Assembly (NCBI RefSeq): GCF_035594765.1 | Contig: NW_026943823.1 | Coordinates: 11,222,001 to 11,286,000 of the forward strand | DNA from: Anolis carolinensis | Taxonomy: Eukaryota | Reading direction: 5' to 3' | Length of the DNA stretch: 64,000 nt | Shown: in pieces, positions 14,753-53,970 of the stretch | How positions within the stretch are numbered: position 1 is the stretch's first letter | Layout: every line of letters starts with the position of its first letter | The notes under the pieces: generated by a model | Databases searched by the model: none | The model's input: only the letters and a program-made list of their open reading frames with translations | What the model was told of the DNA's origin: nothing | Position numbers and translations under genes: made by a program

Positions 14753-14848
14753 ATGATGGCAGACCAGCCACCTCCATTAGAAGCCACACCTATTTTGAAT
14801 GAAGTGCCACTTCTACCTCATATGGTCAATGGGGACACTACGCAACAG
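14753..14848 (+). CDS. FNDC3-like coding exon 1 ([10 protein letters not shown]...NGDTTQQ)
   Basis: Acceptor ccag at 14704, ATG 14753, GC donor CAG|GCAAGT; resembles the FNDC3B N-terminus. Confidence 0.85.
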
Positions 14849-17800
14849 GCAAGTGGACCTGCCTTATAGAAAAATCAATCAAGGTTTTCAATATTAACTG
14901 TAGTTTATCTGATTTCTTCATTCAATCTCCCAGAATCATGACTATTGGTAATAAAGAGAAATCGAAGATTGTTAACTGTGAGTAGCAGAAACATATGGTT
15001 TGGCATGATTTCTACATTTTTCTAAGAATTGATGTTTTAGGAGAAATACCTGGTCTTCACAAACGCAGTAAGAGAAGTATTATAGGCCACATTATACTCA
15101 GTGTATCCACATATTTAGAGTGGTATTTTGACATGTAGTCTAAACATATTAAAGTCTTTGTTCAAGGAGCTGAAAGTAATCTCTCAAGCTTTTGCTACCA
15201 GGCACAGAATGGTACCTCACGACTAGTTTCTAATTTAGATTCTTTGCATAAATTCAACTCCTGAAGGTTTCTACTCTGTGATATTCTAAAAGTAGATTTT
15301 GCTGACGGATCATTTTGATCTTGCTTGCTCTTTGTTTTTGAGGCAGTTGGTACACTAATGTTTTATGGTGGCTGGATAGAAATTAAAAGCTGCTTCAGAT
15401 ATTTTCACTTAAAATTTGTATTCCCTCTGGCTTGATTATGCTGTTACACAATGGAGGGGCAATGCATTTGCACATTTTATATTTGGTTTAATCAGATTCA
15501 GTAAGGCCATTCATAATTGTAGGTAATAAATGGAAGATATTTAGTGGAGATTATTTTTGTAGCCTGGCACTGAGGCTGTAATCTGAGAAAACTAATTTAA
15601 GTAGGCCCCTGTGGTAAAACCTTGAGTGATGGATTTCCTAGCCATATCACAAATTGCATTTGAAATTTTGCTGAGTTGTTGAAAATTGGAGTTTTGTTGG
15701 TTGGAATGGACAGCTGGAATTAGAGAGATACAGATCCAGTGTTTTGGTTGTACTTGTGACATAATGCAGTTTATTTGCACTCCAGGATCTTCTCTGGTTC
15801 CTTCATAGTTTGCAAGTTCTGCTCTTTCTGATCTCTTAACTATGTTCTCCATTTGGAGAAATGTTGAGCATCTTGAACTATTTGTATATCTACACCATCT
15901 ATTACAAATTTATGTAATTAATCTGTGGTCATTATTTGTACCTTAATATTCAACTGCAAACCTGTCTTTGGATTCCCTCCCTTTATTTTATTCAGTAATC
16001 ATTCCAATAATCACTACTATTTTCTGTTAGTAGTATGGTCTCTATTACTTGTGCTTTAATACAAAAGAGTATGCAGTATTGATTAGTCTTTAAGAAATGC
16101 TGGAGTAGGCATGTCTTTACTGTAATGTGGTTGTACCAAGATGGCCCATCATTTTCGTTTTTTGAAGTCACTTGCTCACAGGTATAAACACCAAAGGGAT
16201 TTCTGATATATTTCTCTGAGCTGTAAAATAGATACTCTGTTTTTCTATAAAAATGCATTGTTTGCACATTTTTAAATCACTGTAGAATGTAGTTTGCTTA
16301 ACAGTTCTGGAAAATGATGAAATCTTGGCCTTTTCATCAGCGACCTCTGTTCAGTGAGATGTTTCTAAAATGTTGAGAAAACTGGTTAATCACATAATTT
16401 TTGTGAAATGGAGAACCTTTCTAAATGAATGAAGTTGAATAACTTCCTAATGAAATTCTCTTGCAAAAGAAACAGCTGGTGGTCACAAAACAAATACCAG
16501 TGAAGTTTGCCCAGATTTTTTTCCCTGGGAAATTTATTTAGTGAGTTTTCTGGTAAAGGTTATTTTGAAATCCCACTTTGTAGAAATGATTTAGCAAACA
16601 TTATTTGGTTACCTCTAGGAAGGTATGTTTACTTTATATGTTAAGCTGCTGCCAAGTAAAGCATTCATTTGGCTGAGCTTCCTCTTAATGTCATTTTATA
16701 TATGATAAATGCCACACAATCTAATAAAACCTCTTTAACATTCTAAACTATATGTCATACGAAGTAAAACAGTAAACATTTCAAAACAGTTTATACACTA
16801 GATTGATATATAACAGCAATGTATAAACAGAATAAGGAAATATGATCCTGATTAAGAAAGGTCAACCTAAAACATGTATTGGTACAGTAGAGTCTCACTT
16901 ATCCAACATAAGCGGGCCGACAGAACGTTGGATAAGCGAATATGTTGGATAATATCCAACAGGGCATGTAAGATATACCTGTTTCGACGGGCTTTTGAGT
17001 TCTGTTGTTGATGTTTCAAAAGGTGCTTTTAGCATATAAGTTTGGAAAATAAATAAATAAATAAATAATAAGGAGGGATTAAGGAAAAGCCTATTACACA
17101 TCAAATTAGGTTATGATTTTACAAATTAAGCACCAAAACATCATGTTATACAACAAATTGGACAGAAAAAGTAGTTCAATACGCAGTAATGCTATGTAGT
17201 AATTACTGTATTTACAAATTTAGCACCAAAATACCACGATGTATTGAAAACATTGACTACAAAAATGCGTTGGATAATCCAGAATGTTGGATAAGCGAGT
17301 GTTGGATAAGTGAGATTCTACGGTATTTAAAAGAAAGGTGCCACTTCTGGAGTGGACTGTCTTTGTGATGTTGATTTGGTTGTGGAGCCTTTTTTTATTA
17401 TACAGTTATTATACATTATACAGTAGGACCCAGAGAGATCATTTCATTCAAAACCATGAATAATCAAATCCGCCAAAGTCAAACCCGCAACTATGAAGGA
17501 CCGACTGTATTACAGACATTATAGAAGCGGGGAATAAGAATATTTGAAGCAGAAGCAGATCTCAAATTAGGCCCTTGGTTTCTTTGGAGCTAAATGCAGT
17601 TCTTCCAGTCTTTGGTTGAATGTAGTATTGTAACTTTGCAAGCCCTGAAGTACAGCTGGGAAATGTTTGGCTGGTTCACAGATTCAGAAATGGGTGAGAA
17701 TCTGGACAAATGAGGTAGACATATTTTTGTTTTTTTAGTTCTTGTAGAAATGAGGTTTTTTTTTTTAGTAAGAGGCAAACGGTTTGTCTGTGGCTTTCTG

Positions 17801-20800
17801 GCCATCTCTGACCTTTCTGTCCATATTATCTGATCAGCCCATGCGTCATCCTGGCCCTCTTCGGTGAACAACTTGCTGGTCATAGTTCCTTTGATGGAAT
17901 GCTTTTTAGATCCTTTTGTTTAAAGCAGCTTTGTGAGGTTTTAGAGGGATTAAGCTCAAAATGGGAAGACAAGCTGGCAAAAATTATTAATTGCGTATTC
18001 TATAATAAGCCACTTATTTTGACTTTTTGCTCTGTAGGATAGTACAAAGCATTCCTTATAAATTGGCTGAGAGCAAAAACATAAAAACCAAAGTGCACTG
18101 TGTGCTGAAAATACCATTGGCATATAATGGCAATAAAATATTTGGGTCTGAGAGCCAGGACTTGGATTAGAAGTATTAGCTAGTATTTGAGAGGCTGAAG
18201 GCTATGCACATTTGTGTGAAGGAAGACAGCCGAAGCTGGATTTTTGAAAGGGTAAGAGCTGAGGACATCAACCTTACTGTACAATCATTCCAGCTAGTGG
18301 GTTTTGTTTTGTCTATATTGACTACAGCAGCTCTGAGAGATAGACTGCAAGGACTGGATTTGCGACCTTTTGCATGGGCACCATGACACTTGGTGCTAAG
18401 ATAGGCCCTCTCGGTCTTGGAATTAGGCAATAACCTTGTGGCAATAAGTAATTGTCTGTTTCCAGTGTTTGCACAGTACAGCACAGTGCTATTAGGAAAT
18501 AGCAAGATTAGGGTATGATTCAAAGTGTCATTCTTGCCTTGAGGCAACAGCAGTTTTGAGAAACTGGATGCAAACTACTTGTCTGTGGGCATAGTGTGAG
18601 TATATCTGCAAAGAAAATGCATTGTTTACAAACCATTGAATACAAAAAAAGTCAGTATCCATTTTCTGCTCTGAATACTTCCCATCAGATCTTGTTTATT
18701 TGGGATGAAGTTTCATGGAAACTGATGGAACCTGCTTCCATATAATAAATGTGTTAAGGTGTGCTCATTATGCATCCTGTCTCTTATTGTATATATATGG
18801 TATCCATTACAGTCAGTGTTTCAAATTTTAGCTTGTTTATATCTTTCATAAAATAAACCCAGACACATTGTCACATTTTATTAGCAAACACAAGCCGATG
18901 TTGCATATCAGATGATGATGTCTATTAGAGGGCAACATTTCTGCAGCAACTGTTCTTAGATGGAGAACTCTTCTACCTGTTGTTCATCTCTCGGTGGGAT
19001 ATAGTTAATGCTTCTATAAGATGTTGTGTTATAGAAATGCTAAAGTACCAAAGTGGAATATCATTTTAAAATCTGCCCCAGGAAGCATAAAATGACATAC
19101 ATTCTCTTATTACAGCCCAAGGAAGTTGCCTAAATTCACCTACTGAACTTGCAAAGTTGCAAAAGTTACATCAGTGGCAGATTGTTTAACACTGTTGCAT
19201 TTTTCCCAAGCAGCAATGCCTGATCCAAATTCCAATGCAGCATCATGTAGAGCCTATGCAAATAATAGTAAATAATATGTATTGTTATCAGGGCATGAAG
19301 AACGATCCCCATGTCATATATCCAAACCCTTTGAAGAATAGCATGACAGTAGAACTGGACTAAAACAGCATTTTGATCATAAGTTCAGCAGTGAAAATTG
19401 AATTTGAAACATTGTTTTCTATGTAAACAATTTTAAATCACTTAATGGGGCAAAGTAATATAAAATGGGATACTCATGGCTATAACACATCTGGGTAACT
19501 CCATGTGATCAGGCAGGGAAGATGTTCCAAAACCTTAAAAAATTTTTGTTATGTAACAACAAATGCCAAAGTAGGCAGGTAAGTATATTCTTCTGTAATT
19601 TTATGGACTAATTATAAATCTTCACACTTACTGAGTAGTATATAAACTCAGTATACAACATCTGAACTCAACATTTTTGTTTTGCACAATTTATTTTGGA
19701 AAATAATGTGTTCAAATAAACACATTTATTCATTTATTCATTTCAAATAAAGTTGACATTTAGATTTTTTTCCTCCTGGTTTTCTTTTAGGTTATCCTTG
19801 TGCAAGTAAACCCAGGAGAGACTTTCACAATTAGAACTGAAGATGGACACATTCAGTGTATCCAAGGTAATATTATAATCATAAATGTTTGTGTGAGACA
19901 TGTATTTAAAATAGGCATTCCCAAACTCCAGCTCTCCAGTTGTTTGGGCCTCTAACTCCCAGAAGCGCTAGCCAGCTTCTTCAGTGATCAGGAATTCTGG
20001 AAGTTGAAGACCCAAACAGCTGGAAGACCGCAGTTTGAGGATGCCTGGTTGAAAAGATCCGCTGTTGTCAGTGTTAGCTTTCTGTAGTTGTTCAATGTAC
20101 CCTAAAGCAGGCCATCTTGTGGAATCCTGCCTGGGCTCTGAAATCCTTGGAGGGCCTTCTTTGGTGACACGAGACAGGGCCTTTTCTGTGGCTTCTCCTG
20201 GGATCTGGAACTTCCTCCTTGCTGCTGTTCCATCAGAAGATGGAGATTTCTTTAAACATTATTAAATGTGTGCGGCATTGTTTTAAAAACTTTTAAAAAT
20301 TAATTTCTGTTACAGGTTTCCAACTGCTTCAGTATTGTTAAAAGTTTGATTCCATTCCAATGTTGACTTTCAAATAGTTTTTCACTTATTGTAGTTTGTG
20401 AGATGCCTTGACTCCAAATTTGGAGGGGAAAGGTAGAGTTTACATCATGATGATGATTCATGGTTATCCCCTAGTCCGTATTTCTACATCTGTAGGGCTA
20501 CGCTGCATAATTGTAAAAGTACACAGCAATACATAAACTTGCAGAGGTGCACTTAGAGAGCAATGTCTGCCTCAAAACATCTGTACAGAGAAACCAAGCA
20601 GTATGCTAGTAGGGAAAGCAGATGGCCTGTGGAACCCAAAGTCATGTTGTCAGTCTGATCTAGTAGAAATCTTTCTCATTTCCAGTGTGTGGAACAGTCA
20701 GGTTTTGAACATGAGCAATATGCGTCAAGGAAATGTTATTGGTCGTAGTTCTGTGCAGTCAAAAAACATCTCTGTCAGTTTCTGGCACATTAGTAAAGCT

Positions 20801-23800
20801 TGGGGGGGGGGGGGGAGGCAAGCAGTGAGCAGTAAGATTCCCAGCCTCAATTGCAGGTGAAGTAAATACAAGTGCTTAAAGAAACCTGACATTCAACAGT
20901 TTCTTTCTTCTCATTTTAGATTTACTCTGGTTGATTTCCTTGCAGACAGCAGTCAGTGCTGCCTTGTTTTTTGAATTCATTGCTGTTCATTCCGTAGAAA
21001 GCATACAGTGCGTGGTGGAGCATATTTTGTCCTCAGGTTTTCACAGTACAGAAGACCTATTTTGTCACATTCTCTGGAGTTTCCTCCCTTTCCTAATAAA
21101 TATCCAAAGAATTATCTAATAGTTACCTCAAAGTATTGTACAACATGAAAGCTGAAAAGGAGCCGTGAGCGTCATTTCCTCATGCCTGGGCTTGCTGAGC
21201 TACATCCAAATATTAAGCTATCCAGAACCTGGCAGAGAAAGAAATGCCTTGGGGTTCTTTCTCTGTCACTTCTTATTATCTGTTGTAGTAGTGGGAAGAA
21301 GCATACATTCACTACCAGTGAAGTGAGACATAGTGCGTGTTGTCAGGAGAATTGGGTTTAAGACTGAGGAAATGTTTGATTTTGGCCAGCATAGGAATAC
21401 AAACTGCTCTCTTCTTTGGAGAATATTCTGGGGTGCTTTAAAATATTTCATATTAAAGTGTCTACGTGTCTTTTTGAAGACACTTGATTTAGAGGCCCCT
21501 TTGTCTTGGGCCGTCTTCAGACATTGTGTCAGGCTCTGACTTTGTATTATCAAGGTGAGTCACCCCAGTTGTACACACTGCCCAGTAGTCCTCCTGAATG
21601 ATGTTTACTGATTACTATTTCTGAGTCTTTGTTTACAGCCAGTCCCAGAGTATACTGTTCTTTTTAAATGGCCTTAAGTCTTAAATTGTGGTTGCTTGTA
21701 AACCAGCAAACTCTCACTTTTGACTCCACCAGCCAAACTTTTTCACAATCACAGCTGTCTGGATTGACATTTTCCAGTGACAATGTCAGTCTGCTTTAAA
21801 TCAGGGGCAGGCAAAGTTCACCCCAGCTCATTTTGTGGTCATCAGCCCCTCCAAACTCTGTTGACTTTTCATTCTATCTTCCTTCAAAAACTAACAAATG
21901 GTCTCTTTTGGAAATCATCAGGAACAAAGTCCCTTTTTAAATAGGTTGCAGGGTCCTGGGATGTAACACCACAAACCAATATCAAAGTGTTTGTTTTACT
22001 AAACTGGAACTAGGCTTCCAGTCAATTCTGGTTTGTGTTGTTTTCAAGCATCCAGAAGAAGATGTTAGGGAAGAACGTTAGCACCTCAGATCTGCTGCAA
22101 TTTTGCTCCACAATTTATTCTGTTATTCCATAAAACCTTTTGTTTATTGTTGTTGTGTCTGCAAGTCCACTAGCCATTCTTGGTGTATTATTTTTAATAA
22201 TGTGGTTTTGGAGACTCCTGTACAATAATTTTAAGCTCTTGGATAGATTGGAACATTGCTTAAAAGCTTGTACATAAAAATAATGTGTGTATGCATACAC
22301 ATGGTTGCCATTATGTTATCAGATTGTCAAATGAACTGTGACTGCACCCTCTTTTGTCTAATGTGCAAATATGAATGCTCTGTTGCTTGGTTTCAGGTCC
22401 TGCACATGTTCCGATGATGTCACCAAATGGTTCTGTGCCTCCAATATTTGTGCCTCCTGGCTATGTATCTCAGGTAACTTCTTATGATCTTTTGAATGCT
22501 TTTGCAAGAGAGAAATATTTCTCATGAACAGAAAATGCTCTACTTTACATTGCTGTTCAATAGCTTGAAACAGTAAATGAGACAAAGCAATATTTCATGT
22601 CTTTCATTAGTCATGTTCAGTCTTGCTTTTACTATGGATCTAGCACAGACATAAAATTTCCCAATCCCCCTTATTGTTGTTAGGAAATAAAGAGCATCCA
22701 GCTGCAGAATTGTTAATGTACTACTTTTATCATTTTATCATTAGCTGGGATGATAGCAGGGATTGTGCATTGCATTTCAGTTGCGTAAATTTACATTCAT
22801 GCAGTTAAGTAGCAATTGGACGACACCATCTTCTGAATATACAAAAGCTGTGTTACTTGTGGATGTGATGTTTCACGATCCCATTGGCACTTAATAGTTA
22901 TGTACAATCCAATAATGCTCAACTGAGAATTTGTGGAACTCTGTTTACGCAACTGTGAACCGAATACAGACATTATGGTCTGGCTAATAAGGCACAATCC
23001 TGTGTGTGAAATATAAGCAGGATATTTGCTGATGCTTCACTTAATGCAGCCTTTACTTACTTGTTTGTTTGTTTTGTCAGAGAAGGCTCATGTTCACATA
23101 GGAATAAGTTCTGCCATTAGTTACTCAGAGGTTCTTTTGCCTTTGGTACAGCTTGTTGGCTGTGGTGGACTAATTGCTTCAAGATTCCACTTCAAACCTT
23201 AGGCTCAGTCTTGGAGACATCTGCAGATGGCTCCTAAACACTGAAGTTATGACGTCCGTTCCAATTGGTTCCAATGACTCAGAAGCACTTGGTCTGAGCA
23301 TTGAAGCCTTCCAGGAGGAGGCCTCTCGACTCATGGAACTGAGTCAGCCAGCACCTGGAGCCTTGCTTGTCATCCCATTTTGCATCTGAAAAGGAATCTT
23401 TGCGAACAGCCTGAAATTCCAAACTCTTATCCTTGCTTTTTCTGTGATGCATTAGTAATGCAGTTGAAGAGACAACACCACAGTCTTTAAACATCATTGC
23501 AATAAAATTGAATGCAAATGGTTTTGAGTCCTGTATTGGGAGGAAGGTGTGAAAATAAAGAGTTTTGGTTAATGTGTTGTCGAAGGCTTTCATGGCCTGA
23601 ATCACTGGCTTGCTGTGAGTTTTCTGGACTGTATGGCCATGTTCCAGAAGCAATACAGCCCAGAAAACTCACAGCAACCCAGTGTTGGTTAGGGTAGGGT
23701 CCTTTTTCTTTGTTAGATCTGCTTGCTAGAAGAGAGATGATTAACCATATTGCCAGCTGAGATGAAAAATATTAACTGTGTAGAAATATACTATATATAT

Positions 23801-35800: not shown

Positions 35801-37110
35801 TTCAGCACTTTGCATTTGCCATTGGAGCATATAATTAACTCTGCAGAAGTAATGAGCAAGAAGCTCATTAGTCTGGACTGATGGGTTTTGCCTGGATGGC
35901 TGCCTGCTTAGCATACGCATAGACATGTGTGGTGTATGGGACGTGGCTCGGAATCCCTCCTGCCTTTCATCTTAATTGGTACAAACTTGGTCCTGCAGAT
36001 ATTTTAGTTCTTCTGAGATATACAGCCATTTTGACATTTGATGCAGAGATGTATGCAGGGCAGCTTTATGTAATGACCTAGCAAAAGGGTTTAGCATCAG
36101 ATAACAGTGAATCTTTTCCGAGTGGAGCTCTTTATTTTGATACCACTGTCCTAAAATTGCCAATTGAGGTCTAAACTGTTCACATTTGTTATAATCTACT
36201 CAGGACCGCACTGTGTTTGCCTTAAAGCCTTGAGTTTCATCCTGCTCTCAATGTGGTCTCTATTTTATTTTATAGACCCACCAAAGGATAATGGCGGAGC
36301 AGAGATCTCTACGTATATCCTAGAAATGTCAGAGGCCGCGGCTGGTAAGCATAGACTAGTAAACCTGTACCCCATTAATTTTAAATGTCTGATTTAAGCA
36401 TGACTCTGTCTGGATCCAACCAAATATCTGTAGAAAAAAAAGTTTTTAACAATCCCTTGTTGGTTTTTTTATTGTAGATTAATGTTATAGTGCTACTACT
36501 TCTCTTCCCCCTTTTACATTTCTCACTTTGGTATGATCCCGCCGTCAACTCTATTCACTTTAACAGAAGATGAAGTAATAGTTTTGGGTTTTTGTTTATC
36601 ACACTTTTCCATCCATATGGCTGAGTCCAAGTATTTTTATAACAAATCAAATGTTAATTTTATTTTTAATCAATATTATTAGTAATTCATAACAACTACA
36701 TGCTTAAGACCAGCAAGAATAAACTGTGGGCAATGGGGTGGTCATGCGCTCAGCCTTGGGCCATGATGGGGTATGTTTCTAGGTCCAGTATTTTCAGTGG
36801 TGAGAAACGGGAGACACCATGTGAGCAGTTCAGCCAGATTCAAGTCTCCACAATGTTCCAAGTTGTAAAAATGTTCCATTTGCAAAACAAATGTCGTCTC
36901 TTTTTCCTATCTTGTAAATGTACTTTCTTTTTCTCCTAGGCAGTAAATGGGAAGTGGCTTACAGTGGCCCCATGAGAGAACATGTATGTGCTCATCTCAA
37001 GCCTGGTACTTCCTACAGACTAAGAGTTTCCTGCGTTGGCAGAGGGGGCCAGAGTCAGGTGAGCCATGGGGTCCCTTGGAAATAGTTCTCTGTGTGACCC
37101 ATAATAATAA

Positions 37111-37141
<31 letters not shown>

Positions 37142-43100: not shown

Positions 43101-46100
43101 AGCAGTTAATCATCTGAAAGATTATTTATAGTTGATATGTATATGCTTTTATAGTTTTATAATATTGTGTTTTACTGTTCTTGTTATTGTTTGAATCTGG
43201 CATTAAATTATTGCCATAGTTTGTAAGCCGCCCTGAGTGCCCCTCCGGGGGTGAGAAGGGTGGGGTATAAGTGCGGTGAATCTATATCTATATATCTATA
43301 TCGATAATAAAAGTGAAAACCCGTATGTATGTATGTATGTGGCATGGGTGTCTGTTCACACAGACAGCCTCCAGCCTCCACAAACAGGCTATAGTTCTCA
43401 GGGCTGAGGAGCCAGCAAGTCACTCTTTTCCACTGACATTGCGGTTATAGTGAGCGCCATGAACATGTATCCCAAACCCTGCCAATGTCCACCCCAAACA
43501 CTATGGCCCACTACCCAAGGAATGCTTTCATTTGGGGACCATTTCATCTTAGATCGTGCATTGTCCTCCACCACAGGCAGGCATCCCAGGTGTGAAATTT
43601 GCATGATCCCGCCTACTGCCCTTCCCTTTCCAATCTTTCTGCATAACCAACACAGCAGAACTGAGCAGCAACTAAACTTACTGGAGGTGTTTGGGGGATT
43701 GCTGTTGTACTTTACCCTGCATCAAGTCAGAGCATTGTGACTCCTACTGGGGAATTCATAGGAGTTGTAGTTCACCTACACCCAGAAGGCTATGAACCCA
43801 AACAATGATGAGTCTGGACCAAACTTGCACTGCATCCCCAATATGCCCAGATTTTCATACTGGTTGGTTTGGAGGGGAATTGGCCTGGACATTTGGGAGT
43901 AGTAGATACTGGGATTTATAGTTCACCTGCAATCGAACCCCACCGATGATGGACCAGGATCAAACTTGGCACAAAGAGCCCCCATAACCAATACAACATA
44001 TTGGAAAAGATGCATTCTTGTAAGTGAAGAAGGAGGCATCCAACCCCACCATAAGGGAGATCATTTCTCCCCTGTCCTCTCATTCTCTAGTTCTTTGCTA
44101 TGTAAAGAATTGAATGAGAAGCTTTTGGAAGCTTTAAGTTCTGTTTCCTGGCCTGGGTGGCAATGGGTCTAATCCACTCAAGATCTCTTTTTCTTTGCAA
44201 TTAAAAATTAAGTGCCCCATGTTTCATTTTACAATAAAATTTGAAGGTCATGGTATGCATTTCAGGAGTTGCAGACTTGATTATGTGTGCCTCAGCGTAA
44301 ATCCAGCCTTATTCCAACTTCTCCCCTCCCCACTAGATTCATTACGGTCTACAGCGGACCTTGTCACACATACAAAGTGCAGCGACTTAGTGAATCCACA
44401 ATATACTACTTTAAGATCCAGGCGTGTAACGATGCCGGCGAAGGGGATTTCTCTGAAGTTTACGCGTTCACTACAACCAAATCTCCACCACCGGCGCTGA
44501 AAGGTGAGGGCATGTCTCACATGTTTGTTTGTTTGTTTCTGTTGGAATATTTCATCGGCTGTCATCAGAAGATAATGTTGCTCATGAAAAAATACTTTTG
44601 TTTAAATTGTTGGTAAGAAATACAGTGCTGGAGGAGGACGCATGGGACTTGTTTGTATAAAGGTGGATTATCTTTACGAAATACCTTTTAGGGATGAGGT
44701 TAAAAAGTCTTCAGCCACTTCTTGCTTAGCTGCACTTGGAAAATACTTGAGCTGCTACATAAAGCATCCTCTGCTTAAACCATTCCAATTAGGATTTTGA
44801 TATCCAGAAGAGTTTCTGAATGAGTTTACACATTTTCTTCCATTTAAAATGCCTTCTGTTTGAAATTTAAGGGTGGTTGCATAGAATATGTTTTTGGCAA
44901 AAATACAGGATCCCTACAGAATAGATTTAGAGAAAAAATACCAAAATAGCCTTAGGATCCGCAGACTTTAAAGGCTAAAGAGCCAGAAATATTTGAAAAT
45001 AATTGGAGTCCAGAAAGGATACAGCTTTTCCAGAGGAGTGTAAGAGTGCTAAAAACTCCCTTGTTCCCATCAGATGTGAGTTTGAAACCAAGAGGGGAAA
45101 CCTGTGTATATGTGCAGGTCTCAAATGGAACAGTGCTTGGTTGTTGTGAATCTTCCAGGCTGTATGGCCATGTTCCAGAAGCATTCTTTCCTGACATTTC
45201 ACCTGCATGTATGTCAGGCATCCTCAGAGGTTGTGTGGTCTGTTGGAAACTAGGCAAGTGGGGTTATATATCTGTGGAATGAATATCCAGGGTGGGAGAA
45301 AGAACTTGTCTGTTTGAGGCAGGTGTGAATGTTTCAATTGGCCAGCTTGATTAGCATTGAATCGTCTTTTAGCTTCAAGGTCTGGCTGTTTACTAGATGC
45401 AGGTGAAACGTCAGGAAGGAATGCTTCTGGAACATGGCCATACAGCCCAGAAAACTCACAGCAACCCAGTGATTCTGGCCATGAAAGCCTTTGACGATAC
45501 ATGGAACAGTGCTTTCAAGAGAACAATCCTCTTTGAATTGAATGTAGGAACAAACATGGAGCCACAAATGTCAATATATTCAGTGGCTTACCCAAGGGAG
45601 GATTTTGTTTTTTAATAATGCATGCAAACTTTTTGATGTCTCCAAATTTCATACACCTATTCTGGAAGGATTGGAATCCTGTTTTTCTGAATCATGGTTT
45701 GGACTTGAGGTCCATATGAGATCAAGGCCAAATCAATTTGAATAAGTGAACTAGGCTCTGACTCAAATTGGGGAATCGTACCCAGCTAGACTATTTTTAA
45801 AAAAATGCAAGTTGCATAGTGACCATTGTTGGAATGCGAGGTGATGGCTCTATAGGACTTTTTGTCTTGCAAATTTTAAAAAGACGAATGTTGAAAATGA
45901 ATTGCTGGATCACAAATTGCTTTTTTCTTTTCTAGCGCCCAAAGTACATCAGCTGGGAGATAATGCCTGTGAAGTCACATGGGAGCCTTTACAGCCAATG
46001 AAAGGCGATGCCATCGTTTACATTTTACAACTTGCCAGTGGGAGGGAAGTTGATCAGGTAGTTAATAAGGGATATTTTGTTGTCTTGAAAAGTATTGTTG

Positions 46101-47488
46101 TTTCTCAAGTTTTTAAATATATAGCTGCAAAATGGACCACGTGTTGACTCTGCTGTAAATCATCACCTGAATCTTTTTTTGACAAAAGAACACCAGACAG
46201 ATTTATCTGTAGTCTTCATGCATTCAGAAGACACTGAAGATCCACAGCATTGTTCCTGGAGATGAGAAGTTGATGTTCTTGAGTACATAACCCATTTGTA
46301 TAATATTGGCATTTAATCATTTGGAGAAATAATATTTTTTTCAGAACCTGTAATTACAGTCCTACACGTTGTTCACATGCTTCTCCCGTTAATAAAGGGA
46401 GATCCCAATTTGTGATGAAAGTAATAATTTCATAGGAAATGTGAAGCTTAAAACAATGGCACTAGTTCTCATGCATGATTCGTGATTTTTTTCTGTATTA
46501 GAAGATGTTCAGCTTCAAAGTTATTTCCGTTTCCATGATTCCATAGCATAGAGCCATGCCGGTTCAAGCAGGGACAGTGTAGAGACAGCCATATGGATTT
46601 TTTAAATACATATGGATTTTTTAAAAAGATCCAAAGGGAATATCTTATGTGATTACGATTAAACAATGCCATGGAGCCCCCTTAATTATGTGCCAATATG
46701 ACTCCTTATCTTTGCGGCTCTACAGTCAACTTCTCCATAGAGCCTTGCCAATGTGCCTATGTGTCTCCTTGCGTATGGGCCTCTATGGTCAACTCACCCA
46801 TAGAGAATCCTTGCTAACTTACCTATGGGCTCCTATGGTCACCTGGGAACCGGGTGAGCTCCTGCTGTTAGCCCCAGCTTCTGCCAACCTAGCAGTTCGA
46901 AAACATGCAAATGTGATTAGATCAATAGGTAATGGGAAGGTAACGGCACTCCATGCAGTCATGCCAGCCACATGACTTTATAGGCGTCTATGGACAACAC
47001 CGGCTTTTCGGCTTAGAAATGGAGATGAGCACCAACCCCCAGAGTTGGACACAACTAGACTTAATATCAGGGGGAAAAGCTTTACCTATGTTACCATGTA
47101 CCCAATTAAAGTGTTTTCCAATAGCACCTTCCATTTTGAAATGCACATGTGCTTCTTGTTTCCTTCTCAGGTATACAAGGGACCAGAGACTTCGTTCCGC
47201 TTCTCCAACCTGCAGACAAACTGTGAATACCGGTTCAGGGTGTGTGCTGGACGCCAGTATCAGGACTCCGCTGGGCCACAAGAACTGCTAGGGCCGTACA
47301 GCCCGAGCACTGCGTTTTCATCTCAGAAGCAGGAGCTCGTGTCGCCGTGCACAGACGCGGGGTCCGACCTGCCGAAAAGCCGGAGGAAGCCGCTGAGCGA
47401 TGAACAGTTTGCCTTCTTGCTCCTCCTCATCTTCGCCACCGTTGCTATCCTGTTCGCCGTCATCATCCAGTACTTTGTGATCAAGTAA
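14753..47488 (+). CDS. FNDC3-family protein (fibronectin type III domain-containing 3; FNDC3A-like, probably the FNDC3C1-type paralogue), complete 25-exon CDS, 1196 aa
   Basis: join(14753-14848,19791-19866,22397-22473,24432-24666,25331-25615,26496-26551,29787-29941,30268-30327,31991-32129,32252-32305,33228-33349,33437-33611,34269-34355,35574-35712,36276-36344,36940-37058,39719-39824,39916-40091,40309-40422,40850-40999,42105-42385,42765-42977,44337-44503,45936-46057,47171-47488) = 3591 nt with consistent phases. Family motifs: [23 protein letters not shown], Pro/His-rich region, tandem FN3 repeats, C-terminal [33 protein letters not shown]. Confidence 0.93.
16885..17323. mobile_element. Tc1/mariner-Tigger-like MITE, second copy with internal insertion
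   Basis: Same TIRs, TA TSD. Confidence 0.85.
19791..19866 (+). CDS. FNDC3-like coding exon 2 ([25 protein letters not shown])
   Basis: tttcttttag acceptor, gtaa donor, conserved FNDC3 motif. Confidence 0.93.
19912..20047. mobile_element. Degenerate hAT MITE
   Basis: taggcattcccaaact...agtttgaggatgcctg inverted ends. Confidence 0.6.
22397..22473 (+). CDS. FNDC3-like coding exon 3 ([26 protein letters not shown])
   Basis: AG/GT boundaries, conserved motif. Confidence 0.93.
23572..23684. mobile_element. Penelope-like remnant
   Basis: Same terminal sequence as 4127, short inverted arms. Confidence 0.7.
23791..24255. mobile_element. Same Tc2/pogo-type MITE family
   Basis: Degenerate TIRs, shared internal sequence. 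Confidence 0.75.
24028..24117 (-). mobile_element. CR1 3' tip nested in a MITE
   Basis: agaatcatagaatcatag...ttggaagagacc. Confidence 0.75.
24432..24666 (+). CDS. FNDC3-like coding exon 4 (Pro/His-rich)
   Basis: [10 protein letters not shown]...HLYQEQ, AG/GT. Confidence 0.92.
25331..25615 (+). CDS. FNDC3-like coding exon 5
   Basis: [20 protein letters not shown], phase 1-1. Confidence 0.9.
26496..26551 (+). CDS. FNDC3-like coding exon 6
   Basis: tgcag acceptor, gtaagt donor, [18 protein letters not shown], phase fits. Confidence 0.85.
27380..27995 (-). mobile_element. L2-type 3' end with inserted AT-rich low-complexity tract
   Basis: [13 protein letters not shown] remnant; stem-loop gggactcagagcggcttaca. 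Confidence 0.5.
28330..29310 (+). mobile_element. Degenerate L2 LINE RT fragment
   Basis: [14 protein letters not shown] and other eroded RT/C-terminal motifs. Confidence 0.65.
29787..29941 (+). CDS. FNDC3-like coding exon 7 (first FN3)
   Basis: [16 protein letters not shown]...GKFKSVY. Confidence 0.92.
30268..30327 (+). CDS. FNDC3-like coding exon 8
   Basis: [20 protein letters not shown]. Confidence 0.92.
31149..31799 (+). mobile_element. CR1 LINE 3' fragment
   Basis: [15 protein letters not shown]...[15 protein letters not shown]; (ATTCTATG)n 3' octamer. Confidence 0.92.
31991..32129 (+). CDS. FNDC3-like coding exon 9
   Basis: [11 protein letters not shown]...KNSLNLQWK. Confidence 0.92.
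32252..32305 (+). CDS. FNDC3-like coding exon 10
   Basis: [18 protein letters not shown]. Confidence 0.92.
32546..32680. mobile_element. hAT MITE
   Basis: Same family as 12798-12936. Confidence 0.75.
33228..33349 (+). CDS. FNDC3-like coding exon 11
   Basis: [12 protein letters not shown]...[11 protein letters not shown]. Confidence 0.9.
33437..33611 (+). CDS. FNDC3-like coding exon 12
   Basis: [12 protein letters not shown]...[10 protein letters not shown]. Confidence 0.92.
34269..34355 (+). CDS. FNDC3-like coding exon 13
   Basis: [29 protein letters not shown]. Confidence 0.92.
35574..35712 (+). CDS. FNDC3-like coding exon 14
   Basis: [12 protein letters not shown]...[13 protein letters not shown]. 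Confidence 0.92.
36276..36344 (+). CDS. FNDC3-like coding exon 15
   Basis: [18 protein letters not shown]. Confidence 0.92.
36940..37058 (+). CDS. FNDC3-like coding exon 16
   Basis: KWEVAYSGP...[21 protein letters not shown]. Confidence 0.92.
37104..38760 (-). mobile_element. 5'-truncated L2-clade LINE with uninterrupted RT/C-terminal ORF
   Basis: [52 protein letters not shown]; 3' stem-loop and (TAT)n tail; apparent TSD ACCCATA at 37097-37103 and 38761-38767. Confidence 0.92.
39151..39430 (+). mobile_element. CR1 LINE 3' fragment
   Basis: Nearly identical to the 3' part of 31149-31799, ATTCTATG repeats. Confidence 0.9.
39719..39824 (+). CDS. FNDC3-like coding exon 17
   Basis: [14 protein letters not shown]...ISLQW. 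Confidence 0.9.
39916..40091 (+). CDS. FNDC3-like coding exon 18
   Basis: [14 protein letters not shown]...[18 protein letters not shown]. Confidence 0.9.
40309..40422 (+). CDS. FNDC3-like coding exon 19
   Basis: [18 protein letters not shown]...ASWE. Confidence 0.9.
40850..40999 (+). CDS. FNDC3-like coding exon 20
   Basis: [13 protein letters not shown]...[10 protein letters not shown]. Confidence 0.92.
42105..42385 (+). CDS. FNDC3-like coding exon 21
   Basis: AVNVAGAG...[12 protein letters not shown]...LQPDTLY. Confidence 0.92.
42765..42977 (+). CDS. FNDC3-like coding exon 22
   Basis: [15 protein letters not shown]...LKLKWGEG. Confidence 0.92.
43281..44000 (+). mobile_element. Helitron-like element related to 60608-61210
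   Basis: TCTATA...taaaagt...gtatgtatgt start, internal ggaccaaactt repeats; 3' end not resolved. Confidence 0.5.
44337..44503 (+). CDS. FNDC3-like coding exon 23
   Basis: [17 protein letters not shown]...[10 protein letters not shown]. Confidence 0.92.
45134..45500. mobile_element. Penelope-like remnant, inverted arms
   Basis: Homologous to 4127-4326. Confidence 0.75.
45936..46057 (+). CDS. FNDC3-like coding exon 24
   Basis: [21 protein letters not shown]. Confidence 0.92.
46845..47087 (+). mobile_element. Sauria SINE, 5' truncated
   Basis: Shares body and tail with 13826-14144. Confidence 0.8.
47171..47488 (+). CDS. FNDC3-like last coding exon (end of FN3, TM tail anchor, stop)
   Basis: [11 protein letters not shown]...IIQYFVIK*. 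Confidence 0.93.
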   Translation, partial: VYKGPETSFRFSNLQTNCEYRFRVCAGRQYQDSAGPQELLGPYSPSTAFSSQKQELVSPCTDAGSDLPKSRRKPLSDEQFAFLLLLIFATVAILFAVIIQYFVIK

Positions 47489-50093
47489 GCGAGCGGCTTT
47501 TGAGATTTGCCTTCATTACTCAGCTTATGATTATGATTATTATTTTTTCATATGGAAATTTATGCCTTGGGTATTTATGTAAATTCCAATTAAAAATGCT
47601 CGCTGGGAATGATTGTATAAGACACACATTTCCATTTTTGCTGCTGATGAACAGCAAGGCTGGGTGGGCTGGCCTCCCTCGCTCTCCTCCAAAAAGCCTC
47701 CCACCTGGGGAGAACGGAAGAGACGCAAACCCCTATTCTAGCATTGTTGTGCATTCTCTAATCAGGGTTAGCTGTTGAAAACAGCAAAAAAACAAACAAA
47801 ACAAACAGCTGCCTTAACACGCACTTGTGATTCTCAGAGAGCTCGACTTTTAATACTCTGTTTTCAAGAAAAGGGGTAAGGCATGGCCAGCCGCTTCGGT
47901 CTAAGCCTTGGCTTGTGACGAGATGCAGCAGCAGAGATGCTTAAGCGTAGAACAGTACTGTATTACAGGACATTTGCTAAAGCATACCACACCTGATATT
48001 ATACTGTAGACAAAAAAACCCAAGAATTGAAACCAAAATGTTAATCAACTTTTGACTTAATGCTACTCTTTCTATTTTAAATGTTGGTTTCCCACTCCTT
48101 TTTAATCATTGGGACTCCAATTGTTGAACGGTCAACTTTGAGATACAAAGGTAATCAGCAGACGGTGCTGACATCCTTTTAGAGAAATTATTGGAAGCCC
48201 AGTCTGTCCCTACGAGAGAGAGAGAGGGGTCTGCCTTGATGGCCCTTCTTCTATGCTGTCCATTTCTGAACAAAGTGCTTTCCATCGTCAGTAAGCAAGT
48301 GTTGGCCCGACCCAGAGTCCGCTCTCAGTGCCTGAGAGACCAGTTACTCGCCCTGTGCTTCTGACTTAAAAAGAAAAAAAAACTGCAGCCGCTTTTTCTT
48401 TTTTCTTTTCAGAAGAAAAGCACAGAAAGTTTTTTTTTTGTTTGTCTTTAACGAAAACAAAAAAAGTGCATTTATGATAAATGTTTCACTATTTGGCTCA
48501 AACTGAGCAAAAAAATGTTTTTGTACTATTCTTAACGTAAAATTTAAGAAAAATAATAATAACAATAACAAAACAAATAAAAATGCAAGCTGTGGTTAGC
48601 TTTTGGATTCTCCCCGCATGGCCCAGCCCCCCTCCCTTTATTTTTTGGGATACCCTTCTAACACAATCCAACTGATCAAGTCACATGAGGAAATGAATTT
48701 TTCTGCTCGAGTTTGAAAGGAATTGCTGCCCCTCCTGCAGTGATTCTGTGTTCCCGTCGTTTTTGTGGTTCAAGTCCTCTCTCCCCCTTGTTTTGTGGAT
48801 AAATAACTCAGTAACAGGTCTGGCTTTTGGGTGGAATAGTGTTCCCCTCCCTTCTCTCCTTTGTTTCTGGGGGGTAAATATCATGCACTACATAGGACTG
48901 TTCTGTATCAAGCCCCTGTAGCAGGTACCTGTGAAGTAGAAGTGACTCAATGTTGTCTTTACATGGCGCTCGTTTGGAAGCTGGAGAACGACCCGTTTTT
49001 GTTTCAGAGGAAGACAATGCTCACCTTCAAACGGCCACAGATATTTTTGTTACCTTTTTTGCACAGAGGTAGGGACTGAACAAAATGAGCTCCCCTTTTA
49101 CGACACATCGGGCGCTTGCTCTTGTGAGACAGTGAGAGTGACGTGTACGACTCACTTTAGCTTGAGACATGCCTCTCTTTCAGACCATAGAACATCATCA
49201 AGGTGTTTCTCAGCCAGCTGTTAGTTCATTATAAGCTTATGGTTTGTGGCATTGTGTTTGCATTTCACACCGTGGGGGGGGGGCACATATACACACACAC
49301 ATACACGCAGACGATGGTATCATATCACTTACTATCTTTAAAAAAAATAAAGTAGATTTATGGTGCAATCTGAAATTAACATTTTTTTCTCAAACAAATG
49401 TACTCTCCTTTTTTGTGATCTATTTATTTTGATTTTTAAAAAAAAGCAAATTCTGGAAAATGTATGTTTGAATGTACTGTTCTACTTGTAGCAGAACTTT
49501 TAAGTTAATCATTTATTGTAATGGATTCCTTTCTTCAGTGTTGGAAAGAGTTTTATACAAACGTTAGTGTCGGTAGTTTGCAGGGACGTTTACAACCTGT
49601 TCTCCTTCATTTCTTTTCATACTTCACTTTTTTATATAAAACAGTAGACTGTCTTCAGCCGATTTTCTGTTGCCAAAGCGTATGTGTTTCTTTTTGTTGT
49701 TGCTGTTGTTAAAACTCTGACAGAAACGATTGGGGGGGAAACAGTCTCATCGAATTGGCAATAGTACGTCAGATGCATTTTTTAAATTAGGTTTTTCTGA
49801 ATGAATACTAACCAAAATTATGACTTCCTAGAAAGTTTTAAAAAAGTTTAATTTGTATTTGTAATTGCCACAAACTGTTTATATTTCCAGAAAGTTTACT
49901 GGAAAGCATAGTGTAGAATTTTATATTTACAACTATACATTCCAGATTGATGTACTCTAGTGGCATTAATGTATTAGATTCTCCTTTTTTCTCTTGTATT
50001 GTAATTTTTGCTGTATTTCATACTTATGTTAAACCTGCCAGACATCGTATTACTAAATTGTAACTATAAATAGATAATATATTTAATATGGCC

Positions 50094-50099
50094 AATAAA
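50094..50099 (+). terminator. Probable polyadenylation signal of the FNDC3-like gene (about 2.6 kb 3' UTR)
   Basis: AATAAA at the end of a repeat-free AU-rich region, with a downstream (TG)n GU-rich element at about 50138-50162. Confidence 0.6.
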
Positions 50100-50137
50100 A
50101 ATACAAAATTGTTCACATCAGGCTTGTAGAATTACTC

Positions 50138-50162
50138 TGTGTGTGTGTGTGTGTGTGTGTGT
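50138..50162. repeat. (TG)n microsatellite
   Basis: Direct reading. Confidence 0.9.
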
Positions 50163-50982: not shown

Positions 50983-51290
50983 GTAAAATCCTAGAGTTGG
51001 AAAAGATCTCAAGGGCCATCCATCCAAACCCATTCATCCATGAAGGAAAAGCACAATCCAAGCCCTCCCAAACAACAGCCACCCAGCCTTGGTTTAAAGA
51101 TCTTCAGAGAAGGGAAGCTCACTAAACTCCAAGGCAGCATACTCCACTGTCAAACAGCTCTAAGCATCAGGAAGTCCTTTCTAATGTTTAGGTGGAACTT
51201 CTTTTCCTGGATCTGAATCCATTGCTTTATGTCGTTGTCTCTACATAAGCAGAAATCAAGCCTGCTCTGTCTTCAATATAGCCTTTCAAA
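50983..51290 (-). mobile_element. Older CR1 3' fragment
   Basis: ctagagttggaa...ttcctaatgtttaggtggaa CR1-like 3' sequence. Confidence 0.6.
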
Positions 51291-51948
51291 TATTTAAATA
51301 TAGCTCTTATATTTAAATATAGCTCTTATATGGATCTAATTTACTTATGTTTTAATTTTTATAATGTATTTTAATGATGTATTTTTATAGTTTTAATTGA
51401 TTATATGTACTGTTTTTGTTTTATTATTATGTTCTTGGCATTAAATGTTACCAACTGTGTAAGCCGCCCTGAGTCCCCCCGGGTGAGAAGGGCGGGGTAT
51501 AAATTCTGGAAATAATAATAATAAATATTTTCTCCAACTAAACATAAAGCTACTCAGAACCATGTATCAGAACTGACTAATTGAATCCATTAAATGTGTC
51601 TTTCCAGTTGGGACTAATCTTGTAAAATAGGGAGTCTTTACTCAGTTTCTGAAATCTGGCAAAACTGTTACCTTCAGGACATGCTGGACACTTGCAAGCT
51701 GCAGGCTATTGGGACGGAAAGCGCTGAAGTTACAGGCATTAGAAGATGGAGACATTGAAAAAAACAAAATCACGTTACTCTCTAACAAATAAAAAACAAA
51801 ACTTTAAAAAGGCAAACAAATGTTACAATTCATAAAGTAAGAAGTTATCATCCCGCCTTTGCTGCAGTTGGCCACTTGAAACTCAAATTTGAAGGCTGGT
51901 GAAAGAGGGAGATCGTACAGATATTTGGGAGCTGTTTCCAACACTGTT

Positions 51949-52259
51949 TTATACGAAAGAACTTCTTTCCATACCTTCAACAGAAGCCTTGTCGCTCCTG
52001 CATGAGGCCCTCGACTGCCAGGCTTGCTTCTGATTGAGGAACGTACACACAGCCTTCCTGTATTTCTGGGACATGACGTTATAAAGGATGGGGTTTACGG
52101 ACGCGCCGAGATAAAACAGCAGCATCGAGACAAGGTTGAAGTACTGGCTGATCTCGAAGTACTGGCTGATCTCGTAGAGGCCCACACTTCCTTGGGCAAA
52201 AAGGATCCGTCCGACATGTAAGGGGAGCCAACACAGAATGAAAGCCAAGACGACCACGG
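51949..52259 (-). CDS. GPCR coding exon 2 (TM6-7, C-tail)
   Basis: Acceptor ctctttctag|CC, VVVLAFILCWLP...NPILYNVMSQKYR...SSFV*. Confidence 0.92.
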
Positions 52260-53970
52260 CTAGAAAGAGGCATAAAATACCTTTCAATAGTTCCTTCCTT
52301 TTCATGTTTTTTTTTTTTTGTTGGTGGTGGCACTACTGATATTAAGCTATGTCTTACAATTGAAGAAATACATTAGGTAGATGGATAGACAGGCAGACAG
52401 ACACCTTTCATGTTACACCACTGTAGCACAGTGACTCCCAATTTAATTGTCATGGTAACATCCTGTAGAATCCTAGGGTTTGTAGTTCTGGGTTGCTGTG
52501 AGTTTTCCGGGCTGTATGGTCATGTTCCAGAAGCATTCTCTCCTGATGTTTCATCCACATCTAAGGCAGGCATCTTCAGAGGTTGTGAGGTATACTGGGA
52601 GAAAGACAGGAGTTCTTTCTCCCACCCTGGACATTATTCAGATATATAAACCTCCCTTGCCTAATTTCCAATATACCTCACAACCTCTGAGGATGCCTGC
52701 CATAGATGTGGGCAAAACATCAGGAGAGAATGCTTCTGGAACATGACCATACAGCCCAGAAAACTCACAGTGATTCCAGTCATGAAGGCCTTCAACAACA
52801 TGTTTGTAATTCTATGAGGAACAAAAGCTCTTTGCTAAACTGAGAATTCATCCCCTAAATTGCAAATCAAAGGATTCCTTAGGATGAAACCACAGCCGCT
52901 GGATTCTTCACATTTGAAGATTCAATTAGATTCAGTATAACCCAAGTTTTATATAAACATAGTTGGTGGGAAAGAGAAAATCTAATGTAGCGACAACCTA
53001 GGCAACCTCCTCAAAGTACCATCAGTAGCACCATAAACATCAGTAAATTGTTTCAGCATTCAGTACTCAACGAATGTACATTCAGTACTTGTGGAGGCTT
53101 TGGCAGGTATGTTCCAGTGCAGAATGTATCTGACATAATATCATTAAGATTGAGGTAAAATAAAGGTATTTTAACCAAACAAACAAATTTGCTCAAGGAT
53201 GGATGTTGCTTACCTAGCATCTTGATGGTTTGCTGGTGATACCTCTCTCTGGCGGGAGCATGCTGGCCCTCCAGGTTGTGTGCCGTCCTCCAGAGCTTTC
53301 TGCAGATCATCCCATAAAGGAGAACCAAGCAAAACACAGGTAGGAAAAAATAAAGGGTGGAAAGCCATGTCATGGTCTCTAGGAGCCCCGAGCGAGCCGC
53401 TTCCTTTATGTATTTGCATTCGCTCGTTTCTTCCGGAAGGCTCCCGTTGCGATGCTCTACGCCGAAGAGAAAGAGCACCGGGAGAGCCGTCACGAGCGAG
53501 CAAAGCCATAGTAGCAGGATTATGCCTTTGACGCGGCTTTTCGTAATGGTCGCTTTGGCTTTCAAGGGGAAACAGATTGCAAAGTATCTCTCGACGCTCA
53601 AAGTGGTGATGTGGAGAATGCTGGAGTACGTGCAGGTCTCGCTGAGGTAGAAAATAAACTTGCAGAGGAAATCACCAAAGACATACGGCTTGTACTTCCA
53701 GATCCTGTACAAGTCGGACGGCAAGCCGAGCAAAATCAGGCTATCGGACAGAGCCATGCTGGATAAGTACATGTTCACTGTCGTCCTCATCCCTTTATAC
53801 CGCTTAAAAATTAGAATAATGGTCACATTTCCAGCTACGCCCAAGAAAAACATGATGATGCAAATGATGGTCACAGGAATCAAGACAGGAATCTCAAACA
53901 AGGAAAAGGAAAGTTCTTCGTAATAGTCCGTATCGTTTCCAAAAGAGGTGTTCAATGAAAAGGAATCCAT
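51949..53970 (-). CDS. Ghrelin/motilin receptor family class A GPCR (GHSR/MLNR-like paralogue), 2 coding exons, 355 aa
   Basis: join complement(53970-53214,52259-51949). 7 TM segments; N-glycosylation sequons NTS/NDT; YLSSMALSD, SETCTY, SVERYFAICFPL, CWLPLHVGR, NPILY. Phase-1 intron after QTIKML, the position used in GHSR/MLNR. Good Kozak gaaATGg with an in-frame stop upstream. Confidence 0.92.
52138..52173. repeat. Perfect 18-nt tandem duplication in GPCR exon 2
   Basis: gaagtactggctgatctc x2, encoding EISQYF-EISQYF. Confidence 0.95.
52488..52800. mobile_element. Penelope-like remnant, inverted arms, inside the GPCR intron
   Basis: Homologous to 4127-4326. Confidence 0.78.
53214..53970 (-). 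CDS. GPCR coding exon 1 (N-terminus to ICL3, TM1-5)
   Basis: ATG 53970, donor CTAG|GTAAGC at 53214/53213. Confidence 0.92.

What the first reader, a model, noticed from the sequence alone, without database searches (positions are those of the whole stretch)
14753..53970. Third FNDC3 + peptide-receptor paralogon
Known: in human, FNDC3A neighbours MLNR and FNDC3B neighbours GHSR, and rodents have a third gene, Fndc3c1. Seen: an FNDC3 gene with the family exon structure, an FNDC3B-like N-terminus (MVNGDTTQQ) and an FNDC3A-like C-terminus (IIQYFVIK), tail to tail with a GHSR/MLNR-like gene. The next neighbour is a STARD10-like gene rather than CDADC1 or TNFSF10. Inference: this is the third ohnologous block, which kept its receptor in reptiles. 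This independently supports the receptor being a distinct paralogue.
Basis: partly seen in the sequence, partly recalled or inferred. Interest (0 to 1): 0.7.

Follow-up and report, generated by a model that had tools for sequence, protein, structure and literature searches.

The report
Third ghrelin-family receptor beside FNDC3C
This lizard stretch holds an intact, spliced third ghrelin/motilin-family receptor gene tail to tail with FNDC3C, likely a block left from early vertebrate genome doubling; a matching receptor group is already catalogued, and its hormone (predicted to be ghrelin-like) is untested.

Summary
Observation confirmed. A 25-exon, 1196-aa FNDC3 gene lies tail to tail with an intact two-exon, 355-aa GHSR/MLNR-family receptor, followed by a STARD10-like gene; CYSLTR1 lies 35 kb upstream.

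The FNDC3 protein falls in clade C (100/100) with Xenopus fndc3c, mammalian Fndc3c1, coelacanth and sharks, sister to FNDC3A. The receptor forms a third clade beside GHSR and MLNR, both of which this genome holds elsewhere. Contigs of two runs join its exons exactly.

Corrections: the receptor is not reptile-specific (birds, amphibians and basal ray-finned fish have it); PGK1 and TAF9 are not neighbours; the 'B-like' N-terminus is not chimeric. The genes are largely known: a clade with this taxon pattern was named MLNRB (PMC6504862).

Not found in my 10 literature searches: (1) this genome appears to lack FNDC3A, with MLNR moved away, so lizard records named 'FNDC3A' are FNDC3C; (2) 15 of 15 named lizard orthologues carry Leu at 6.51, the human GHSR variant F279L that lowers basal activity.

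The ligand is untested; ghrelin is the best guess. Interest 0.38.

The parts
14753..47488 (+). FNDC3C coding region, 25 exons (14753-14848, 19791-19866, 22397-22473, 24432-24666, 25331-25615, 26496-26551, 29787-29941, 30268-30327, 31991-32129, 32252-32305, 33228-33349, 33437-33611, 34269-34355, 35574-35712, 36276-36344, 36940-37058, 39719-39824, 39916-40091, 40309-40422, 40850-40999, 42105-42385, 42765-42977, 44337-44503, 45936-46057, 47171-47488); 1196 aa, proline-rich N-terminus, nine FN3 domains, C-terminal membrane anchor
   Evidence: clade C
14849..19790 (+). First coding intron of FNDC3C, with a GC donor (GC-AG)
   Evidence: the join reproduces P0121; not checked with RNA
47489..50128 (+). 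FNDC3C 3' UTR; AATAAA at 50094
   Evidence: contigs of X4, X8 and X12 end at 50093-50128; signal found
53214..53970 (-). Receptor exon 1 (TM1 to start of TM6), 757 nt
52260..53213 (-). Receptor intron, GT-AG, phase 1, donor at the same codon position as in GHSR and MLNR
   Evidence: (X4 record 21, X14 record 13)
51949..52259 (-). Receptor exon 2 (TM6, TM7, tail, stop)
52219..52221 (-). Leu266, position 6.51 (Phe279 of human GHSR)
52138..52173 (-). In-frame tandem duplication of 18 nt in extracellular loop 3
   Evidence: contigs of X4, X8, X12 and X14 span it without gaps
58016..62342 (-). STARD10-like paralogue, 3' exons (58016 to about 58240, and 62236-62342); 5' exons lie beyond the window

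Best explanation
The window holds FNDC3C and an intact third GHSR/MLNR-family receptor, tail to tail and with CYSLTR1 upstream, likely one of the blocks made by the early vertebrate genome duplications and likely the sister of the CYSLTR2-FNDC3A-MLNR block. Shown: both gene models, three separate clades for each family, spliced contigs of the receptor, and same-contig linkage of the pair across tetrapods. Inferred (about 0.85): one ancestral FNDC3-receptor pair was doubled into the B/GHSR and A-C lines, then into A/MLNR and C/third receptor before sharks and bony vertebrates split. The two genes are likely neighbours by descent, not partners. FNDC3C is likely a tail-anchored ER scaffold like FNDC3A/B, which recruit TENT5 poly(A) polymerases (PMC13291444). 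The receptor is predicted to be a Gq/11-coupled peptide receptor. My bet for its ligand is acylated ghrelin (about 0.45), then motilin (0.25), then both or another peptide (0.3). In lizards Leu6.51 would lower its ligand-free activity.
For: FNDC3 tree, 40 rows: clades A, B and C each 100/100, A+C 100/99. On 18 of those rows AU rejects C+B (p 4e-5), A+B (3e-5) and window+A (5e-7). Frog FNDC3A outscores the lizard protein against 6 of 6 human FNDC3A domain structures. Receptor tree, 59 rows: tetrapod clade 99/99, with bichir/sturgeon/gar/bowfin 94/85; GHSR 95/95; tetrapod MLNR 94/99. This genome and Xenopus tropicalis each hold all three receptors. The upstream GPCR scores 343 bits on CysLT1 against 188 on CysLT2. 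The pair shares a contig length in 19 of 20 species listed with lengths in both searches, and has consecutive locus tags on a 361-kb scaffold in Ascaphus (compared by hand). This genome's FNDC3B-GHSR pair has the same tail-to-tail layout. Pocket: D99, R102, E124, R283, L181, L210, M213, S217, F286, N305, F312 and Y313 (human GHSR numbers) are kept; 4.60 is I/V and S217 is S, as in GHSR, not F and T as in MLNR. Roles of E124, R283, R102, I178, L181 and F286 come from PMC8379176 passages. Only two precursor loci of the motilin/ghrelin family were found.
Against: The receptor tree does not resolve the sister of the third clade: with MLNR support 53; with GHSR not rejected, p-AU 0.37 (36 of 59 rows). 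The joint duplication with the A block therefore rests on FNDC3 and CYSLTR. Joining the ray-finned fish group to the tetrapod group is just under the starred threshold (94/85). Overall identity is higher to GHSR (53%) than to MLNR (47%). Two GHSR-invariant pocket residues differ: Q120 is never Q in 86 tetrapod orthologues, and F309 is M in 77 of the 78 that cover it. That weakens the ghrelin bet. Same-contig evidence is chromosome-scale for most species, and Pygoscelis did not match. PGK1 and TAF9 are not adjacent. No human, mouse or chicken FNDC3A/B full-length sequence was in the trees. The mature-peptide profile PF04644 found nothing, not even the two expected genes, so a third ligand gene is not excluded.
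Confidence: 0.82

Rival explanations
1. The window is the relocated FNDC3A-MLNR (or FNDC3B-GHSR) locus of this lizard, as many database names ('FNDC3A', 'GHSR type 1-like') imply.
For: No other FNDC3A-like locus exists in the genome, so the window gene is the best hit of FNDC3A queries. Many squamate records of this gene are named FNDC3A.
Against: Window+A rejected (p-AU 5e-7). Frogs, birds and sturgeon each have members in both clade A and clade C. True GHSR (C3) and MLNR (C1) exist elsewhere in this genome.
Confidence: 0.02
2. The third block arose by a segmental duplication of the FNDC3A block in an early jawed vertebrate, not by whole-genome duplication.
For: My data date the A/C split only to before the shark split; one locus cannot tell the mechanism.
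Against: CYSLTR1, a STARD10 paralogue (three loci in the genome), a teneurin and PGK lie on the same contig, and cyclostome FNDC3 genes fall on both sides of the B versus A/C split. That these contigs belong to one ancestral linkage group is recalled, not tested.
Confidence: 0.1
3. The receptor is a second motilin receptor (the name MLNRB fits its function), or has its own unknown peptide.
For: FNDC3 and CYSLTR place the block as sister to the MLNR block. Q120 and F309 of GHSR are not kept, and 4 of 4 fish MLNR-like rows also have M at 7.39.
Against: Positions 4.60 and S217 are GHSR-type. Frogs keep the receptor although a motilin gene was not found in frogs (PMC8419268 passages). Only two precursor loci were found.
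Confidence: 0.4

Closest known systems
MLNRB / MLNR3 (PMC6504862; main-text passage; supplement table rows)
   Same: Described as a novel MLNR subtype in coelacanth, amphibian and two reptiles, with a close gar/fish group. My tree shows the same two-part pattern. Very likely the same clade; their example accession was not available to compare.
   Different: No birds are listed there; one search finds many. The passages I saw give no flanking genes or pocket analysis.
GHSR2 / GHSR3 in the 'GHSR 1/2/3 MLNR' family table (PMC5207463, table passage)
   Same: Lists four paralogues in one family sharing the ligands ghrelin and motilin.
   Different: Which of the two names is this gene cannot be told. 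The primary study (recalled as Yun et al. 2015) was not held and may already map this block.
Xenopus fndc3c.L and mammalian Fndc3c1 (database names)
   Same: Same clade, 100/100.
   Different: The lizard protein is slow-evolving and full length; the placental copies sit on a long branch. No mammalian receptor orthologue was among the 120 listed hits.
Human GHSR (PDB 7W2Z) and MLNR (PDB 9JMC)
   Same: Best solved-structure matches of the anole orthologue P0001, 364 and 326 bits; E3.33-R6.55 pair and ERY/NPxxY motifs kept.
   Different: Separate clade; Q120 to F, F279 to L (lizards), F309 to M.

Membership tests
FNDC3 family | Nine FN3 domains after a proline-rich N-terminus | tested here: met
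   9 Pfam fn3 stretches in P0121; sequence
FNDC3 family | Single C-terminal membrane anchor, no other hydrophobic segment | tested here: met
   hydropathy scan, one segment at 1166-1196
FNDC3 family | ER location and TENT5 binding | not testable with these tools
   shown for FNDC3A/B in PMC13291444 (passages)
FNDC3C (Fndc3c1 orthologues) | Clade with mammalian Fndc3c1 and Xenopus fndc3c | tested here: met
   100/100
FNDC3C (Fndc3c1 orthologues) | CYSLTR1 as upstream neighbour | tested here: met
   the mammalian order is recalled, one search found no paper giving it
   PGK at C14:1.27 Mb, 10 Mb away; TAF9 family on C6 and two small contigs
FNDC3A orthologues | Clade with frog, bird and fish FNDC3A | tested here: not met
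   p-AU 5e-7
FNDC3B orthologues | Clade with bowfin and quail FNDC3B | tested here: not met
   this genome's C3 gene holds that place; C+B rejected
GHSR/MLNR receptor family | Class A GPCR with the E3.33-R6.55 pair and one intron near the start of TM6 | tested here: met
GHSR orthologues | Clade with tetrapod and fish GHSR; FNDC3B neighbour | tested here: not met
   this genome's GHSR is on C3 beside FNDC3B
MLNR orthologues | Clade with mammalian, bird and frog MLNR | tested here: not met
   this genome's MLNR is on C1
MLNRB/MLNR3 of PMC6504862 | Orthology to the coelacanth example ENSLACP00000009190 | not tested
   sequence not held; only the taxon pattern was compared
GHSR/MLNR receptor family | Activation by ghrelin or motilin through Gq/11 | not testable with these tools
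   needs a cell assay
2R ohnologous block | Several linked families with matching duplication trees older than the shark split | tested here: inconclusive
   FNDC3 fits; receptor sister unresolved; CYSLTR and STARD10 by similarity only

The most novel reading that the evidence does not exclude
This is an unstudied third arm of the ghrelin/motilin system, kept from bichirs to birds and lost separately in mammals, snakes, fowl and songbirds. Lizards retuned it by fixing the very change (Phe6.51Leu) that dampens the human ghrelin receptor, and they swapped ohnologues: the CYSLTR2-FNDC3A block broke up and FNDC3A was lost, leaving FNDC3C to do its job under the wrong name.
Probability: 0.35. Interest if true: 0.6.

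Novelty: already known. Interest (0 to 1): 0.38.

Why it matters
One comparative study states that tetrapods have a single GHS-R (PMC4797157 abstract) and a motilin review's tree treats one MLN-R line (PMC8419268 passages). A third, spliced receptor in frogs, turtles, crocodiles, lizards and many birds could account for some ghrelin or motilin effects measured in those animals, and it can be tested in a simple cell assay. The flanking genes give a way to name it and to look for its remains in mammals. If FNDC3A is truly gone from lizards, records named 'FNDC3A' in squamates are misassigned, and lizards are a natural test of whether FNDC3C can stand in for FNDC3A.

Tried and rejected
Chimeric FNDC3 (B-like head, A-like tail): rejected. 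Identity to clade C (Xenopus fndc3c or coelacanth) is highest in 7 of 7 segments; only residues 1-100 are nearer B (76%) than A (68-69%). Receptor pseudogene: rejected (open frame, spliced contigs). The 18-nt duplication as an assembly error: rejected. TAF9B/PGK1 adjacency: not found. A third ligand gene: PF04643 gave two loci and PF04644 none, so this is a weak test. CDADC1 position: PF00383 gave three loci that I did not identify. The look-up of sequencing runs listed no holder on record as RNA, so no claim is made on tissue or level. Exon joints in the 5' half of FNDC3C were not checked with reads. Structure and complex prediction were not run: no mature ligand sequence was held and a fold would not decide orthology. 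A mammalian receptor pseudogene could not be searched (no mammalian genome offered). Rows dropped: receptor AU tests used 36 of 59 rows, FNDC3 AU tests 18 of 40; the two 'window only' receptor AU tests are nearly trivial, because they pull the gene away from its own orthologues. The primary 2R study of these receptors was not held; it and its supplements may already show this block. Literature searches. The scan's own index gave nothing nearby and one unrelated sea-squirt note.
Full report
1. Observation. Twenty-five exons at 14753-47488 (+) join into one open frame of 1196 aa; the first intron is GC-AG and the other 23 are GT-AG. The product differs from database protein P0121 (an Anolis carolinensis record) at 1 of 1196 residues. 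It has nine Pfam fn3 stretches and one C-terminal hydrophobic segment. On the minus strand, two exons (53970-53214, 52259-51949) give an intact 355-aa receptor. Its best solved-structure matches, run with the anole orthologue P0001, are human GHSR (364 bits) and MLNR (326). Beyond it lies a STARD10-like gene. Contigs of runs X4 and X14, 2 of the 4 laid and from two studies, join the receptor exons exactly; FNDC3 contigs of three runs end at 50093-50128, next to an AATAAA at 50094. The runs are only guessed to be RNA, and contigs give no level or tissue.

2. Which FNDC3 it is. In a 40-row tree (LG+G4) clades A, B and C each have 100/100 support. The window protein sits in C with Xenopus fndc3c.L, rodent and lemur Fndc3c1, platypus, marsupial, coelacanth, lungfish, sturgeon and sharks, and A+C has 100/99. 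On 18 of these rows AU tests reject window+A (p 5e-7), C+B (4e-5) and A+B (3e-5). Frog FNDC3A scores higher than the lizard protein against all 6 human FNDC3A domain structures, the opposite of what orthology would give. The protein is not a chimera: it is closest to clade C in 7 of 7 segments. Limits: no full-length mammalian or chicken FNDC3A/B was available, and clade B had five rows.

3. Which receptor it is. This genome has GHSR on C3, tail to tail with FNDC3B, and MLNR on C1. In a 59-row tree the window receptor lies in a tetrapod clade (99/99) joined to a bichir/sturgeon/gar/bowfin group (94/85), apart from GHSR (95/95) and tetrapod MLNR (94/99). Its sister is unresolved: with MLNR support 53, with GHSR p-AU 0.37 (36 rows). 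Orthologues occur in lizards, turtles, crocodilians, many birds, frogs, salamanders and caecilians. None of the 120 listed hits (of 296) is named as a snake, mammal, galliform or passerine, although snakes appear in the FNDC3C and MLNR lists. That suggests losses, but a word-based search of cluster representatives cannot prove absence.

4. Neighbourhood. Order on C14: a PDZ/SH3 gene (MPP1-like, name recalled), CYSLTR1 (+, about 35 kb before the FNDC3C start; 343 bits on CysLT1 against 188 on CysLT2), FNDC3C (+), receptor (-), STARD10-like (-), teneurin (-). The cat order is RB1/LPAR6, RCBTB2, CYSLTR2, FNDC3A, MLNR, CDADC1, CAB39L (PMC10969784, table passage), so CYSLTR-FNDC3-receptor recurs. 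FNDC3B next to GHSR across vertebrates is in PMC4797157 (passages, abstract and section 14). The genome has three STARD10-like loci; the C3 one scores highest on human STARD10 (103 bits, against 93 for the window and 92 for C4).

5. An unexpected result: no FNDC3A here. Five searches (two window exons, frog FNDC3A, hawk FNDC3A, hawk last exon) found only the C14 and C3 FNDC3 loci (one search used a stricter first look, and only part of the candidates were scored). RB1, an intronic LPAR6-like gene and an RCC1/BTB gene lie at C1:158.7 Mb and are followed, with no N in 200 kb, by an LRR/FN3 gene and a fermitin, not by CYSLTR2 or FNDC3A. MLNR is 13 Mb away with no FNDC3 match in 160 kb around it. 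The CYSLTR1 search showed no hit near the CysLT2 score level (best other 140 bits; 141 of 289 candidates scored), and only one Mo25/CAB39 locus was found. I put loss of FNDC3A in this lineage at about 0.8. Many squamate records of the window's gene are named FNDC3A, which fits a wider loss but does not show it. One search found no paper on this.

6. How it likely works. The two genes are convergent, their transcripts appear to end about 1.3 kb apart, and the MLNR-FNDC3A pair has been broken in this genome, so linkage is likely inherited order rather than shared function (inference). FNDC3C is likely an ER tail-anchored scaffold, by analogy with FNDC3A/B (PMC13291444 passages). The receptor keeps the E124-R283 pair, R102 and the hydrophobic residues L181 and F286, with I/V at 178; these serve ghrelin binding in human GHSR (PMC8379176 passages). 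It lacks Q120 and has M for F309. With only two precursor loci found, a shared ligand is the simplest reading: ghrelin 0.45, motilin 0.25, both or another 0.3. Position 6.51 is Leu in the window and in 16 of 16 scorable top hits (15 named non-snake squamates, 1 unnamed), and in 0 of 59 scorable other hits (57 Phe, 2 Tyr; 15 of the 90 rows were not scorable). In human GHSR, F279L lowers basal activity and shifts ghrelin potency (PMC12012706 passages; PMC8379176). The effect in this receptor is a prediction; some MLNR rows also showed Leu in that alignment column (6 of 120), not checked for truncation.

7. What is known. PMC6504862 (passage and supplement rows) names MLNRB/MLNR3 in coelacanth, amphibian and two reptiles, with a close gar/fish group. 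PMC5207463 (table passage) lists GHSR, GHSR2, GHSR3 and MLNR as one family. Databases name the Xenopus gene fndc3c and the mammalian one Fndc3c1. PMC3713435 and PMC8419268 (passages) list one GHSR for the anole and one MLN-R line. My ten searches found no paper tying the receptor to FNDC3C or CYSLTR1, but the primary 2R study was not held and may do so.

8. Verdict. Both genes are known third paralogues in an ordinary ohnologous block, so the class is 'already known'. Added here are the linkage evidence, the wider taxon range, the apparent loss of FNDC3A and the lizard Leu6.51. Interest 0.38.

Noticed in passing
G000:C1:158.67-158.88 Mb (L084, L090-L109) and C1:172.06 Mb (L003, L037-L052): The RB1-LPAR6-RCBTB2 block is followed by an LRR/FN3 gene and a fermitin instead of CYSLTR2-FNDC3A; MLNR lies 13 Mb away beside an aftiphilin-like gene (name recalled). 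FNDC3A, CYSLTR2 and a second CAB39 gene were not found in the genome.
   Followed up: partly
window 52138-52173 (-): An 18-nt in-frame duplication in receptor loop 3; the Anolis sagrei orthologue P0001 has a differently placed duplication in the same loop, and the other lizards shown lack it.
   Followed up: partly
window 14849 (+): GC donor in the first coding intron of FNDC3C.
   Followed up: partly
window 37482-38783 (-): Reverse-transcriptase frame (Pfam RVT_1) of a LINE-like element inside an FNDC3C intron.
   Followed up: partly
L016 (C14:11.317-11.323 Mb) and L047-L048 (C1:172.07-172.08 Mb): Retrovirus-like elements with gag, pol and env-like frames, one between the STARD10-like gene and the teneurin, one just past MLNR; seen in ORF scans only.
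   Followed up: no
L028, L027, L026 (C14:11.165-11.185 Mb): Two long LTR-retrotransposon-like open frames (about 1600 aa each) upstream of CYSLTR1.
   Followed up: no
L115, L116, L117: The TAF9-family exon scores identically on C6 and on small contigs C23 and C25, possibly assembly duplicates.
   Followed up: no
one search hit list: No named snake, mammal, galliform or passerine among the 120 listed receptor hits, hinting at repeated loss.
   Followed up: partly
P0073 and P0221: An unnamed receptor orthologue and an unnamed FNDC3C share a longest-contig length of 6323, possibly one contig covering both genes.
   Followed up: no
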